Origin: Eledone cirrhosa
Taxonomy: Eukaryota
Assembly: GCA_964016885.1 (NCBI GenBank)
Contig: OZ024740.1
Coordinates: forward strand, 68,076,001 to 68,140,000
DNA: 64,000 bases
Direction: 5' to 3'
Shown here: piece after piece, positions 7,940-63,389 of the stretch
Position numbering within the stretch: the first letter of the stretch is position 1
How the letters are laid out: each line of letters starts with the position of its first letter
Program-made: the position numbers and the translations under genes
Notes under the pieces: model-generated
What the model saw: the letters and a program-made list of their open reading frames with translations, nothing else
The model's database searches: none
What the model was told of the DNA's origin: nothing

Positions 7940-8520
7940 TATATAAGTATGTATACGTACATACATATATGTATACAGACGTACAACGTACAATAGAATG
8001 TATATTTATACATACATACACACATATATATATATATATATGTACGTATGGATTCACCGAACATTTATTATAATGCTCGGTTTGTTTTAAACAAACATCC
8101 GAATTAAGCCGTACAATGTTTAGCAAAGATCGTTGCCCTTTTGTTCAACACTGACAAACGAACGATGTACTAGTTTCAAGCTTATAAGCTATCGTCAGCA
8201 CCGTATACCTTCCTGCCAGATGATTGAACGTCTGAAAGTATATACTTTCCTTATGCATATTAACGGCTGAGCAGCCTAATTTGCATATCGAGTGAGTTAA
8301 TCGGCCGGGCGCACCGAAAATGATAAACGGAAAAAATGAAACGAAATTTCATTTATCACTCTTAGTACGGCTGTTACTTAAAAGTAAGTATGCATGTATG
8401 TATATATATACATACTGCGGTACGTCTGTAGAAATATGTGTATGTACGTATACATACTTATATTTAAGTAACAGCCGTACTGAGAGTGAGAAATGAAATT
8501 TCGTTTCATTTTTGCCGTTT
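7940..8520 (-). mobile_element. Non-coding HHR-bearing element, family B (about 430-bp unit), with an inverted partial copy at about 8430-8520
   Basis: Matches 63390-64000 in reverse; flanked by (TA)n. Confidence 0.8.
8162..8204 (-). ncRNA. Minimal type I hammerhead ribozyme (family B)
   Basis: rc: ACGGUG CUGACGA U AGCU-UAUA-AGCU U GAAA CUAG UA CAUCGU; canonical core, 6-bp stem I, palindromic ACUAGU stem III. Confidence 0.9.
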
Positions 8521-8737
8521 ATATAGATATATATTTATATATATATATATATATAAATATATATATTTAAAATTAGAATTGGTTGTCTGAAATAGCTATA
8601 TATATATGAATGTATATATATAGTGTATTTTGAAATACACTCTATGCTTAATTAAAAGCATTTCGAAGAACTTATGCTATTGTTTTAGAGTAGTGTCAGA
8701 CTCACTTAATTTAATATTCAGCAAACAGGGGAGATAA

Positions 8738-8782
8738 AGCTGACAGGGCACTGTTTCGCATTTATTGATGCTTATCTAAGCC
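8738..8782 (-). ncRNA. Hammerhead ribozyme family C copy (mutated core UAGAUAA)
   Basis: rc GGCU UAGAUAA GCAU-CAAUAA-AUGC GAAA CAGUGCCCUG UC AGCU. Confidence 0.65.
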
Positions 8783-9057
8783 AACTACTCCTCCTGTCTG
8801 CTGAAATCATGGATGTTTGGCTCTTATAGAATTCTAGTAAATTATCAGGAACTGCTTATACAGAGCGTTTGCCGGTCAAGCAGAAATTGAAAATTAGAAT
8901 TGGTGCTTTGAAATAGCTATATATATATGAATGTATATATAGTGTACTTTGAAAATAGACTGTATGCTTAATTAAAAGCATTTCGAAGACCTTATGCTAT
9001 TGTTTTAGTGTAGTGACAGACTCACTTACTTTAATTTTCAGCAAACAGGGGAGATAA

Positions 9058-9102
9058 AGCTGACATGGCCCTGTTTCGCATTTATTGACGCTTATCAAAG
9101 CC
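9058..9102 (-). ncRNA. Hammerhead ribozyme family C copy (U3-A8)
   Basis: rc GGCU UUGAUAA GCGU-CAAUAA-AUGC GAAA CAGGGCCAUG UC AGCU. Confidence 0.75.
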
Positions 9103-9266
9103 AACTACTCCTCCTGTCTGCTGAAATCATAGCTCTTTCAGAGCACCAATTCTAATATTCAATTTCTGCTTCACCGGCAACCGCTCTGTATATTCAGTTC
9201 CTGATTATTTACGAGAATTCTATGAGAACCAAACATCCATGATTTCAGCAGACAAGAGTAGTAGTT

Positions 9267-58754: not shown

Positions 58755-59170
58755 CACCAACCAACTGTCAATAAATGTGGTCACTCTAATTGTGGAACCT
58801 GCACTCACCTCATTGAAGGCAACACGTATACATTTAAATCAGGACAATAGTTTGGTGGAACAATCACTTCACTTGCTCATCAGAAAATCTAATTTATGCC
58901 ATTAAATCTAAAGGATGCAATGAAGATTATATAGGACAAACTAAACTCACACTCAGAGACAGAATGACAGTTCATCGACAACAATTACGAGATCCAACCA
59001 CGAGACAGATACCACTAAGCGCACATATAGACATGTGCGCAAGTAATAAGACACTCAAATTTCAAGTCTTCCCATTTTACCTTTGCGCTAACAATACAAC
59101 AAAACAAATACGAATAAATAAGGAAAATATGTTTATTCAAAAATATAGACCAGCATTAAATATGGTTTAA
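58755..59170 (+). mobile_element. Fourth PLE family fragment (GIY-YIG domain, decayed)
   Basis: KCGHSNCGTCTH, TCSSENLIYAI, YIGQT..LRDRMTVHRQQ, PLSAH, ENMFIQKYRPALN. Confidence 0.75.
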
Positions 59171-61752
59171 TACACATTATGTCAACACCATAACATGCTA
59201 ACCATCCAAACAGACACATACACACAAATATAACACCTTCTACTTCAGAAAATAAAAACCCGAACTAAATAAACCTTAACATACGTTTGCGCTGACAATA
59301 CAACAGAACAAATACGAATAAGTAAGGAAAATATGTTCATTCAAAAATATTCCTACTAAAGGAATCATTTTCCTACACACACGCACACAATATATATATA
59401 TTCTCTTCATCTTAACATGCTAACCATACTCCCACACACATAACGCCCCCCCCGTACACACACACAACTCCCTCCCCCATTTCTACTAATAGAATCATCT
59501 TCCAATACACACATACACACACACACAAGCAGACAAATAAACATACACATATTTACTTTCTTTACTTCAATAGAAAATCTGAATTCTGAGACGCCAGCGA
59601 ACTAACCATATTCACTGAACCAGAACAATTCTCCCATCCTATTTCTCTTGACCATTATCTTTTGCTTGTCATAAAATTCTCTAAAAATGCTACAGAATAG
59701 ATTTGCAAATAAGGGCGCGAAAATTTAATGAAAACTTGTTCACGTGACAGCAATAATTTCATTTATAACCAATCAAATTACGTTTATTAAAAAAAAGCCT
59801 TAGTGAGCCCCCTTTTTTTAAGTAAAAAGTAATTCAAACACTCATATATGAAAAAGCAACCTGTGCCAACGATGTTGGATCACAAAGTGCACCTGTGACA
59901 TAGAAGTGGTAGAATTGATCCAGTATATAACATACTTTCTGGCTTATGTTGCTCAACGATTCAATGTAGACATTAATTTTTCAAACATTGTTCCAACAAG
60001 TGATTTGAGTTGCGGTCCGTGAATATATGTGTATGTACATATGTGCGTATATATATTTATATATATATATATATATATATATATATATATATATATATAT
60101 ATATATATATATATACATACACACACACACACACATATATATGTGTGTTTTTTGCTGGGGCGATCATAAATATATTTTTTATATTTTTTATTGTTTTACT
60201 AAGCGTAATAACTGATAAAATATATGTACAGGAAATTAGAAACGTTGAGCAGCAGTAACAAGAGATGACAGAGTATCTAGCTAAATCTCTTGTGTGTAAG
60301 TTTCATCGAATGAGTATATATTTAATCATATAATTACAGATATGTACACACGCCCACACATACACACAAGTATTCCTATATATGTTTATATATATACACA
60401 AACCAAGATACATGCCAACACCGCCAAACACACACATATATATATATATATATATATATATATATATATATATATATATATATATATATATATATATATA
60501 TATATGTATATATATATATATATATATATATATATATATATATATATATATATATATATATACATCAGGAAAGAAGGTTGACATGGTTTGCTATACAAAA
60601 AGGTTTTTAATCTCATAGCTGACAATTGTTTCTCTGAACTGGTAGGTCTAGAGATCGCTATTCGCTTATTTTCACGTTACTCGATCGCCAATACAAAATT
60701 ATAACAAGTCAGATCTTCGGAGCATGCGAGAATGAAGAAAATACACAGGCAAGAAAAGAATATACAGGCTACTATATGAAGTAGTAATGGCATTCAATTA
60801 GAACAATAACAACAATTACAACAATGCTATTAATAAATTATTTGAGGAGACCCTGACATTACTTAGGTGGGGGGGTATAATGTATCTAACGTTACGGCGT
60901 GTAAAGCTAGCTGTCATGAGGCAAAAGTAAGAGTTTGGCATGTACAGAGTATCGAAGTGTGTATCAATTTTAAATTATAAAGATAAGCCAGTGTTTACAG
61001 TCTTTCTTTTCATCTTCAATAGTATACATGAGTGGGACAACACTGTCAAAGCTAAATACTTGTTGAGTTAATACAGAGGTTAACGAAGTAATATACGCAT
61101 ATATTTACACACACACACACACACACACACACACACACACACAAACACACACACACATATATATATATATATATATATATATATACCCATGCATGTGTAC
61201 ATAGACACATACATACACATCAATATACACTCGTACAAAAATATACATACATGCAAAGAGATAAGCGTGCTAATTGTAATTATGGCAAAAGGAAGGTAAA
61301 GTTACATTGTAGTAGTGATTTGAGAAAAACTAGGATTTAGGATCAAATGATGGCAGCAGCTGAGAAGGAATAAGTTTGTGGGTAGATGAGGTTCTTACAG
61401 ACATTTGTGTATCATCCACTACCTGGAATACCATAACTGGACTTTACCTAAGAGGACTGCATTTAACTATTATTTGTTACCCCGTATATATATATATATA
61501 TGTGTGTGTGTGTGTGTGTCTGTGTGTGTGTGTGTGTGTGTGTGTGTGTGTGTATGTGTGTGTGTGTGTATGTGTGTGTGTGTGTGTGTGTATGTGTGTG
61601 TGTGTGTGTGTGTGTGTGTGTGTGTGTGTGTGTGTGTGTGTGTGTGTGTGTGTGTAAATGAAGTCATTGCGTCGGAAAGGTCCAGGAAAAAAGAGTGTTC
61701 TATGTAGGTTACAGAGCTTATTTATGTAATAAACAACATAAGATGATTATTT

Positions 61753-61806
61753 CATTTACCAGTGGTTTCTTGAAAGCAAATAAATCTGCTTTTAGTCGTC
61801 AGAATG
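61753..61806 (-). ncRNA. Type I hammerhead ribozyme family L
   Basis: rc CAUU CUGACGA CUAAAAGCAGAU-UU-AUUUGCUUUCAA GAAA CCACUGG UA AAUG. Confidence 0.82.
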
Positions 61807-61861
61807 AAAACATCCTGGTGTTTTTATTCGAATCCACATTCAATAAAAACACCAGGATTTC

Positions 61862-61920
61862 TTTCATTCTGACGACTGAAAACAGATTATTTGCTTTCAA
61901 GAAACCACTGGTAAATGAAA
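61862..61920 (+). ncRNA. Type I hammerhead ribozyme family L
   Basis: UUUCAUU CUGACGA C UGAAAACAGAUUAUUUGCUUUCA A GAAA CCACUGG UA AAUGAAA; 7-bp stem I. Confidence 0.85.
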
Positions 61921-63389
61921 TAATCATCTTATGTTGTTTATTACATTACACACACACACATATATATATATATATATATATATATATATATATATATATA
62001 TATATATATTATGCTTAGATAGCAGAACGTATGTGTAACAAAACCACTCTCGTTCTGTGTATTACAGTATGGTATGGATGAAGGACTGTCAGTGAATAAA
62101 AATTGATTGATGTTATAAGTGTTCATTGTTTTCTCTAATATATATATATATATATATATATATATGTGTGTGTGTGTGTATGTGTGTGTGTGTGTGTGTG
62201 TGTGTGTGTGTGTGTGTGTGTTTGTGTGTGTGTGTGTGTGTGTGTGTGTGTAAATGGGCGTGTGTGTATATATATATGGAAATGAAATTAGAATGTTATT
62301 GCTCGACCTAGCACACATATATACTATTAAAACTCTATGAGTATTTGCTTGTATGTATTTTAATACAACCAAACAGTGCATAATAGGAAAATACTTTGCC
62401 CCTAAAACGGAAATACTATTGGAATAAAACACGTTCCGCATAAATCGGAGCACGGGTTCCCAATATACGGATTTTTGCCGGGTTCCTTCATAAATAGAGA
62501 ATAGGGGAAGTTAGAGAGAAAAATATAGTAGTTGTGAGAGAGCTGATTGAAAGAGAGAGAGAGAGAGAGAGAGAGAAAAAGAGAGAGAGAGAGAGAGAGA
62601 GAGAGAGAGAGAGAGAGAGAGAGAGAGAGAGAGAGAGAGAGAGAGAGGGGAGAGCCGGTGAGAGAGAGAGTGAGTGAAGGAGACAGAGTAGAAACATGGA
62701 GGAGAGAGAGAGAGATAATTAGTGGGGTTGTTGAATAACAGATGAGTTCAAAGAGATTCGAATACAGCATTACTGCATCTGATTAGTGAATATTAAGTCA
62801 CATGTATCATATCATCTGTAGTAGGACATGATATACGTAACGAATATTTCCGGCTAAATATGAAGGATTTGTTAGTGTGTGTGGGTATATGTTTGTGTGT
62901 CTATGACCAGTGTATATAGTGACACACACACACACACACACACACACACACACACACACACACACACACACGCACACACACACACACGCGCACACACACA
63001 CACACACGCGCGCGCACACACACAGACACACACACATATATATGTATATATATATGTAACAATTAGAAATTGATTAACATATAAATAAACATGAAACAAT
63101 CATAGGGGATAATTTGTACAAGTGTGTAAGCACACATAGCTAGGTAGGTAACTAAATAAAGTTAACTAGAACTTCAAAAATAGATACCTTATAAGATGAT
63201 TAATCTTCCTTGTATATATTCTATTAAAGAAATATATTTCACCAATTAATCGATTGGTAAACGACAGTAGCCAGTACTTGGATTCTCAACAAGGAAGAAG
63301 TTCAGCCGTCTGTGTTTACGCGTTAAGTTCAAATCACCGACTGGCCAGTAACACGTGCTGTATCTACTAAAAAATACACCCATCATAGT

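What the first reader, a model, noticed from the sequence alone, without database searches (positions are those of the whole stretch)
7940..61944. Fold-backs have uniform polarity: 5' ends fused in the centre, RNA 3' ends facing outward into (TA)n
Seen: in every fold-back whose sense can be set from the HHR or ORF (B 7940-8520, C, G, H, E 37845-37985, I, K, L and the PLE copy at 53505-55571), the left arm is minus and the right arm is plus. Arms often differ by substitutions or indels, so they are not simple read fold-back artefacts. Inference: both strands of the self-complementary (TA)n target are nicked and each primes reverse transcription, and the two cDNAs are then joined head-to-head (symmetric TPRT or twin priming). 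Inverted PLE ends are known, but this looks like the dominant insertion product here.
Basis: partly seen in the sequence, partly recalled or inferred. Interest (0 to 1): 0.75.

Follow-up and report, generated by a model that had tools for sequence, protein, structure and literature searches.

The report
Twin-primed head-to-head Penelope insertions
These mirror-image inserts are the clipped back ends of Penelope-like jumping genes, almost always joined front to front inside TA repeats, which is a known layout; one arm nearly always stops at each of two fixed points, so they likely form when both cut DNA strands start copying the same RNA rather than when one copy folds back on itself.

Summary
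Polarity confirmed. In the window plus 1.55 Mb of blind genome samples, fused opposite-strand pairs of hammerhead-bearing families were -/+ in 100 of 102 cases. Several families are 3' ends of GIY-YIG Penelope-like elements (PLEs). Head-to-head predominance is already in print (PMC3846280). What is added: each family has two fixed 3' ends (site 1, and site 2 after a tail), and 63 of 66 fully assignable pairs use one of each. In 21 of 23 informative cases the tail-less arm reaches further 5', and 13 pairs barely overlap or not at all; the published self-priming model cannot give that. Arms are closer to each other (5.3%) than to sister copies (9.7%). Best model: asymmetric twin priming on one RNA, not symmetric TPRT (inferred). 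Corrections: the form is about 41-43% of insertions, not shown to dominate; the 53505-55571 PLE is a non-overlapping inversion with a chimeric left arm, not a fold-back; unique-arm palindromes centred on (TA)n are a separate class. This scan noted the same model before (27 notes, at least 13 genomes, this one included).

The parts
7934..8520 (.). Fold-back B, tandem hammerhead family F0: long minus arm ending at site 1, short plus arm ending at the tail (site 2)
8168..8198 (-). Type I hammerhead motif of B's left arm
8572..9451 (.). Family F3: two tandem minus units (tail at left) joined to one plus unit ending at site 1
9271..9307 (+). Hammerhead motif with variant core in the plus arm of that insertion
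11585..14608 (+). PLE ORF with Asn-rich N-terminal part, RT motifs and C-terminal GIY-YIG-type domain; one in-frame stop at 13388-13390
   Evidence: motifs read by eye; Pfam gave no hit for this copy
14861..15177 (+). 3' end (pLTR) of that PLE with hammerhead core at 14881 and tail, family F35
15210..15527 (.). Fold-back of a repeated family with a one-sided extension on the left; no hammerhead found, sense not set
29347..29565 (.). Family F12 head-to-head, staggered: tail arm minus (ref 304-431), site-1 arm plus (264-343)
29692..30485 (.). 800-bp fold-back, family F34 (sense by eye); both arms appear to end at the same site, an exception
30702..30860 (.). Family F33 head-to-head, staggered: site-1 arm minus (181-239), tail arm plus (216-316)
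34295..34694 (.). Family F15 head-to-head with 61-nt spacer; sites not defined
37749..37987 (.). E, family F12: tail arm minus, site-1 arm plus, 24-nt spacer; one of two nested cases
38733..38862 (.). Family F12 non-overlapping inversion: site-1 arm minus (306-345) joined to tail-only arm plus (342-431); clearest twin-priming product
38875..39061 (.). Family F7 head-to-head centred on a native AT palindrome; tail on the right
43231..43624 (.). Family F16 fold-back, arms 98% alike, hammerhead motif on each arm, part of the tail on the right
51790..53505 (-). 3' part of a second PLE family (thumb-like region, GIY-YIG-type ORF 52231-53097) continuing the minus arm out to (TA)n at 51783
53505..54480 (-). 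Inverted RT segment of the first PLE family (matches 13484-12303, 208-bp internal deletion)
   Evidence: RVT_1 E=1.3e-4, below cut-off
54484..55573 (+). EN part and pLTR of the first PLE family ending at site 1 in (TA)n
58188..58607 (.). Family F20 head-to-head; tail arm minus with intact hammerhead 58328-58382, site-1 arm plus with internal deletion
61655..61949 (.). Family F5 head-to-head; tail arm minus, site-1 arm plus with hammerhead 61869-61913
2537..2670 (.). Family F33 non-overlapping inversion outside the finding's span: tail arm minus, site-1 arm plus

Best explanation
The fold-backs are head-to-head pairs of 5'-truncated 3' ends of hammerhead-bearing Penelope-like retroelements inserted in (TA)n, with one arm ending at site 1 and the other at site 2, and they likely arise by asymmetric twin priming on one RNA. 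Shown: polarity, the two fixed 3' ends, their one-each pairing, staggered arms, arm-to-arm kinship, TA flanks, and GIY-YIG ORFs upstream on the hammerhead strand. Inferred: a PLE RT-endonuclease, probably a dimer, nicks both strands of the AT-rich target; one 3'-OH starts reverse transcription at site 2 (tail end) and the other at site 1, 30-100 nt upstream on the same uncleaved RNA. Both copy towards the 5' end. The site-2 copy often stalls in the tail or near site 1, otherwise it would have to displace the other copy. Both stop early, often on the 3' arm of the hammerhead's stem II. The two cDNA 3' ends are then joined by short homology or end joining and filled in. If only one priming survives, a single arm results.
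For: -/+ 100 vs +/- 1 and +/-/+ 1. Site 1 + site 2 in 63 of 66 pairs with both ends at a defined site (52 of 55 without the window and the duplicate), although single arms use the two sites about equally (51 vs 58); binomial p about 1e-15 against free choice. Of 48 non-tandem pairs: 13 non-overlapping, 8 staggered, 2 nested, 25 even; 21:2, p=6.6e-5 (junctions). Tail on the left 19, on the right 29, so no orientation artefact. The tail arm stops within 10 nt of site 1 in 8 of 48. Arm-arm distance 5.3% vs median 9.7% to other copies, lower in 46 of 53; shared rare variants 40 in 5722 sites (0.70 per 100) vs 0.22 per 100 for random pairs. Raw Illumina reads of three samples show strand-switch joints at interior positions of family F33 and TA tracts after both 3' sites. 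PMC11167929 (section 3 part 2 and passages): PAc cleaves and extends both strands, starts RT at two sites that bound the tail, is predicted to be a dimer, and uses uncleaved RNA.
Against: 25 of 48 pairs are 'even' and fit self-priming equally well; many centre on native hairpins. Same-site pairs exist (3 of 66, plus 29692-30485 by eye). 17 of 83 pairs had an end at neither site and were set aside. Arm kinship is also expected from self-priming, from two RNAs of one source locus, or from later arm-to-arm conversion. Overlapping arms need strand displacement on one RNA, untested for PLEs here. [quoted passage not shown] Target-site duplications cannot be read in (TA)n; the 24 cases with a non-TA flank gave only a few doubtful AT-rich candidates. 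The chimeric insertion 51790-55573 may involve two different RNAs. References are rough consensuses from 1.6 Mb and ends are BLAST-level (about +/-6 nt).
Confidence: 0.65

Rival explanations
1. Dual priming: two RNA molecules, one per subunit, from the same source locus or burst, with an asymmetric dimer fixing one at site 1 and one at site 2.
For: Explains overlapping arms without strand displacement, same-site pairs and the chimeric PLE at 51790-55573. Arm kinship follows if one locus supplies both RNAs. Proposed for L1 as 'dual priming' (PMC2837659 passages).
Against: Gives no reason for the tail arm to be the shorter-reaching one (21:2) or to stop near site 1 (8 of 48). Arms are closer than random family pairs, so the RNAs are not drawn from the pool.
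Confidence: 0.15
2. Self-priming (snap-back): one cDNA folds back at a hairpin and copies itself, as proposed in PMC3846280 (there on an antisense template); the second arm joins the target at the TA-like motif of site 1.
For: Gives head-to-head polarity and related arms. 25 of 48 pairs are even and 2 nested; centres often lie at native hairpins; 38 of 83 junctions overlap.
Against: The second arm must be contained in the first. In 21 pairs each arm holds sequence the other lacks, 13 with little or no overlap, e.g. 38733-38862. It may still make part of the even class.
Confidence: 0.1
3. Post-insertion change: symmetric palindromes later lost sequence across the centre and were homogenised by arm-to-arm conversion; tail-to-tail forms were purged.
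For: Palindromes are unstable (general knowledge); arms differ by about 5%, so the copies are old enough.
Against: Deletion should shorten either arm alike, not 21:2. It does not explain the site 1/site 2 pairing at the outer ends, and nothing makes tail-to-tail less stable than head-to-head.
Confidence: 0.07
4. Assembly or read fold-back artefact.
For: No read was shown to span the window's own junctions; long reads were not available.
Against: Only 6 of 53 arm pairs are identical; an artefact cannot pair site 1 with site 2 or make non-overlapping arms; the same strand-switch joints recur in raw reads of three samples and in contigs of another study.
Confidence: 0.02

Closest known systems
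Insertion architecture of endonuclease-bearing PLEs (Penelope/Poseidon, Neptune, Naiad): partial tandem pLTR, adjacent inverted 5'-truncated copy, one-sided tail (PMC8557442, PMC3846280; passages and one part read)
   Same: Head-to-head polarity, tandem units, hammerhead in the 3' end, optional tail, microsatellite target, C-terminal GIY-YIG ORFs upstream.
   Different: Tails here are about 30-95 nt rather than 30-40. The near-obligate pairing of one site-1 arm with one site-2 arm and the staggered arms are counted here; those papers leave the mechanism open or propose self-priming.
PAc in vitro reaction (PMC11167929)
   Same: Two RT start sites bounding the tail, both strands cut and extended, AT-rich target, uncleaved RNA as template.
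   Different: The passages read do not link two-strand extension to inverted insertions ('inverted' occurs once, for a blocking base) and report no strand difference in start site.
L1 twin priming and dual priming (PMC2837659 passages)
   Same: Two primings from the two nicks, 5' ends joined at the centre, non-overlapping inverted fragments.
   Different: L1 uses the poly(A) end plus a variable internal site by annealing, and arms do not overlap. Here both sites are fixed per family, arms often overlap into palindromes, and about 40% of insertions have the form.
Animal non-LTR retrozymes (bioRxiv 10.64898/2026.07.22.740005, part 1 of 5 read)
   Same: Families F0, F1, F3 and F8 are tandem units of about 320-470 nt with a type I hammerhead and no ORF found.
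   Different: They show the same two-site head-to-head insertion as the ORF-linked families, which points to PLE-type integration; the part read does not treat inverted insertions.

Membership tests
EN+ Penelope-like elements | Single ORF with RT and GIY-YIG endonuclease | tested here: met
   ORF 11585-14608 has RT and C-terminal GIY-YIG-type motifs read by eye. Profile support is weak: RVT_1 E=1.3e-4 for the 53504 copy, GIY-YIG above cut-off only for 58838-59167; no Pfam hit for the main ORF, no PDB hit.
EN+ Penelope-like elements | Hammerhead in the 3' end/pLTR on the ORF strand | tested here: met
   102 descriptor hits vs 1 in reversed sequence. Of 40 endonuclease hits, the nearest family downstream was same-strand in 25, opposite in 6, none in 9; F35, F20, F12, F7, F33, F16, F9 follow EN ORFs.
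EN+ Penelope-like elements | Optional one-sided tail (two 3' ends) | tested here: met
   Two 3' ends defined in ten families and used for pairing; F1's two ends lie only about 4 nt apart; not defined for nine low-copy families.
EN+ Penelope-like elements | Inverted 5'-truncated copy at the 5' end (head-to-head) | tested here: met
   100 of 102 fused opposite-strand pairs.
EN+ Penelope-like elements | Target-site duplication | tested here: inconclusive
   Hidden by (TA)n; a few AT-rich candidates among 24 cases with a non-TA flank.
EN+ Penelope-like elements | RT phylogeny and clade | not tested
   No tree built. A CX4CX2C linker before the GIY-YIG core fits Neptune/Nematis as described in PMC8557442; a lead only.
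L1-type twin priming | Two cDNAs from the two nicks, each arm holding sequence the other lacks | tested here: met
   21 of 48 pairs, 13 of them non-overlapping.
L1-type twin priming | Poly(A) priming plus variable internal priming, arms never overlapping | tested here: not met
   No poly(A) ends, both sites fixed, 35 of 48 pairs overlap.
L1-type twin priming | One RNA template | tested here: inconclusive
   Arms share rare variants three times more than random pairs; one source locus or conversion would do the same.
Non-LTR retrozymes | Tandem units each with a type I hammerhead, no ORF | tested here: met
   F0, F1, F3; most other families are plain 3' stubs of ORF-bearing PLEs.
Non-LTR retrozymes | Self-cleavage and circular RNA | not testable with these tools
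   No RNA runs were laid.

The most novel reading that the evidence does not exclude
Two-site twin priming is the normal PLE integration reaction: an RT-endonuclease dimer holds one RNA at two fixed points, each primed by one strand of the cut target. The 'tail' is then the spacing between the two active sites, the inverted pLTR is the second cDNA, and single arms are events in which one priming was lost. This would replace the self-priming and antisense-template model, and would also be how tandem retrozymes integrate.
Probability: 0.45. Interest if true: 0.75.

Novelty: new variant of a known kind. Interest (0 to 1): 0.5.

Why it matters
How PLEs make their tandem and inverted structures and their one-sided tail is named as open in PMC8557442 and PMC11167929. 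The site 1/site 2 pairing and the staggered arms turn that into a sharp test with an existing in vitro system, and speak against the published self-priming idea. It also matters for annotation: about 2 to 3 such palindromes per 50 kb here can be mistaken for MITEs, microRNA hairpins (one search gave only sub-threshold miRNA matches) or assembly errors. The polarity alone is not news.

Tried and rejected
Rfam: among the 150 best of 264 matches shown, no hammerhead and nothing at gathering score; replaced by my own descriptor. Pfam and PDB searches on the main ORF gave nothing; no Atlas result was obtained. The 30 best genome matches to B were only inspected, since they are picked for full length; one served as the F0 reference, none entered the counts. 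About 90 weak F12 hits in a satellite in block B27 and F0 hits confined to its low-complexity part were dropped before counting. Pairs separated by a TA tract were treated as separate insertions: +/- 8, -/+ 5, +/+ 3, -/- 4. Hammerhead cleavage as the cause of the inner ends: rejected as a general rule, 3 of 120 arm ends within 3 nt of the predicted cut. (TA)n-centred palindromes as tail-to-tail counter-examples: rejected, their arms are single-copy in the sample. Reads for the window's own PLE junction: not covered; several window-private letters are absent from the runs, so that locus is not represented. The tool does not print read direction at strand-switch joints, so polarity in reads is inferred from position; the frequent end at 6961 may be caused by mismatches of the reference copy at 6958-6960. 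Paper searches for a printed twin-priming model of PLEs found none; most subscription papers are not searched and no supplements were read.
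Full report
Setting. The window lies in a 3.0-Gb animal assembly and is dense in (TA)n. Self-comparison shows many local inverted repeats. To test the polarity claim beyond one window I took 31 blocks of 50 kb at round-number positions on eleven contigs, chosen without seeing their content: 1.55 Mb, 0.05% of the genome.

Setting sense. A type I hammerhead descriptor (core, stems I-III, cleavage triplet) gave 102 hits in window plus sample and 1 in the reversed sequences. 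The hits fell into 33 clusters with no opposite-strand matches between seeds; five further seeds were set by eye, two of which joined existing clusters. Twenty families were extended into references. The hammerhead strand is the coding strand: of 40 endonuclease-ORF hits the nearest family downstream was on the same strand in 25, opposite in 6, absent in 9, and F35, F20, F12, F7, F33, F16 and F9 follow such ORFs. So several of the 'mini-elements' are 3' stubs of Penelope-like elements. F0, F1 and F3 are tandem ORF-less units, like retrozymes.

Polarity. Fused opposite-strand pairs: -/+ 12 in the window and 88 in the sample, +/- 1, +/-/+ 1. One -/+ pair is duplicated inside a 5-kb palindrome in block B19. 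Adjacent same-family hammerhead pairs gave 16 -/+ and 1 +/-. Longer-range pairs of single arms: 44 -/+ and 19 +/-, of which 15 and 3 show the inverted repeat continuing inward. (TA)3+ flanks both ends in 59 of 83, one end in 18, none in 6, against 8.6% background. It is not new: PMC3846280 (passages) calls head-to-head 'the most frequently observed' arrangement, and PMC8557442 (passages) describes the adjacent inverted 5'-truncated copy, the one-sided tail and microsatellite targeting.

Dominance. In nine families with defined ends there are 82 fused head-to-head insertions and 108 single arms (43%; sample only 71 and 102). 26 single arms run off the 5' end of my references and some have distant partners. 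The form is common, perhaps near half, but is not shown to dominate.

Two fixed ends. Each well-sampled family ends in (TA)n at either of two points, site 1 or site 2, about 30-95 nt apart. Single arms use them about equally (51 and 58). Within head-to-head pairs the choice is not free: of 83 pairs in ten families, 63 are site 1 + site 2, 1 is site 1 + site 1, 2 are site 2 + site 2, and 17 have an end at neither site; 63 of 66 gives p about 1e-15; without the window and the duplicate it is 52 of 55. The 800-bp fold-back 29692-30485 looks like a further same-site case. The tail lies left in 19 and right in 29.

Nested or staggered. A cDNA that folds back can only make a second arm contained in the first. 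Of 48 non-tandem site 1 + site 2 pairs, 13 do not overlap (tail arm starts within 8 nt of site 1 or beyond), 8 are staggered with the site-1 arm reaching further 5', 2 are nested and 25 are even within 12 nt (21:2, p=6.6e-5; junction sequences). Window examples: 38733-38862, 2537-2670, 30702-30860, 29347-29565. In 8 of 48 the tail arm stops within 10 nt of site 1, as if blocked there. Random central deletion would not favour one arm. Junctions: 29 of 83 overlap by 1-7 nt, 9 by 8 or more, 5 are blunt, 22 hold 1-10 extra nt, 18 hold more (BLAST-level).

One template. For 53 pairs overlapping by 40 nt or more, arms differ by 5.3% on average against a median 9.7% to other copies (lower in 46 of 53); they share rare variants at 0.70 per 100 sites against 0.22 for random pairs; 6 pairs are identical. 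This excludes two RNAs drawn from the family pool, but not two RNAs from one locus or later conversion. Inner ends do not track the predicted ribozyme cut (3 of 120 within 3 nt); most arms run through it, so the template was uncleaved. In F33 they pile up on the 3' arm of stem II, which read depth also shows.

Reads. The runs found are of the same or a related species, not established. They do not represent the window's PLE locus. On a full F33 copy, 12 of the 15 joints shown (18 not shown) are strand switches at interior positions, none at the two 3' sites, several shared by three raw-read samples and by contigs of another study; TA tracts follow both sites. The architecture is therefore not an assembly artefact at family level; the individual window junctions remain unchecked by reads.

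The PLE at 53505-55571. Its arms match 13484-12303 (inverted) and 14012-15129 (forward) of the copy at 11585-15177: an inversion with no overlap. The minus arm continues leftwards, just after the RT catalytic motif, into the thumb-like region, endonuclease and 3' end of a different PLE family, reaching (TA)n at 51783. Polarity and TA flanks hold for the whole 51790-55573, but the left arm is a chimera: a template switch between two RNAs, or a later neighbour.

Mechanism. PMC11167929 (section 3 part 2 and passages) shows for a lizard PLE that both target strands are cut and extended, that RT starts at two sites bounding the tail, that uncleaved RNA is used, and predicts a dimer; it does not connect this to inverted insertions. 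Put together with the counts above, the likeliest reaction is twin priming at two fixed sites of one RNA, followed by joining of the two cDNA ends (0.65). It works like L1 twin priming (PMC2837659, passages) but differs in fixed sites, overlapping arms and frequency. Rivals: two RNAs from one source (0.15), self-priming as proposed in PMC3846280 (0.10, possible for the even class), later change (0.07), artefact (0.02). Nicking, priming and joining are inferred; none was observed.

Novelty. Six paper searches found no printed two-site twin-priming model for PLEs; the library lacks most subscription papers and no supplements were read. This scan's notes hold the same idea 27 times in at least 13 genomes, this one included. 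I had reached the reading before opening them, and they are not evidence. One note's claim that inner ends mark the ribozyme cut was not borne out in the six families tested. Verdict: known architecture, with a specific and testable mechanism that is probably unpublished; interest 0.5.

Noticed in passing
window 96-493, 1486-1751, 2742-3193, 42870-42939; blocks B03, B05, B07, B14 (e.g. L059:2867-3182): Palindromes with single-copy arms, most of them centred on a (TA)n tract, up to 350-nt arms and 78-100% alike. A separate class, possibly inverted duplications from breaks at TA hairpins; not PLE tail-to-tail pairs.
   Followed up: partly
window 51790-54480: Minus-strand chimera of two PLE families joined just after the RT catalytic motif; possible template switch at a roughly equivalent position.
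   Followed up: partly
window 11585-12200: Long Asn-rich stretch at the N-terminus of the PLE ORF, recalling the Asn-rich inserts of rotifer Penelope ORFs (PMC3846280), here ahead of the RT.
   Followed up: no
window and sample: At least 25 hammerhead families, many with palindromic stem III, long stem II (up to about 95 nt) or variant cores in which the first C is replaced by T; none appears among the Rfam matches shown for the window.
   Followed up: partly
window 55588-55614 and sample: Tail-only or tail-fragment inserts between TA tracts, as expected if only the site-2 priming survives.
   Followed up: partly
block B19 143-5305 (L126); block B07 18599-30163 (L067-L069): Large head-to-head structures of 5 kb and 11 kb with smaller elements inside.
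   Followed up: no
block B27 (L166-L170); blocks B00, B13: A satellite of about 277-bp period fills B27; B00 and B13 have no (TA)n tracts at all.
   Followed up: no
window 5214-5743, 21741-21932, 56828-57015: A very abundant SINE-like repeat (199 hits in the sample) also forms an inverted pair at 5214-5733; sense not set.
   Followed up: no
window 31232-34300, 36971-37423, 44237-44707, 45918-48629: Decayed LINE-type RT and endonuclease frames (read by eye); 100-N gap pair reading 200 N at 40439-40638.
   Followed up: no
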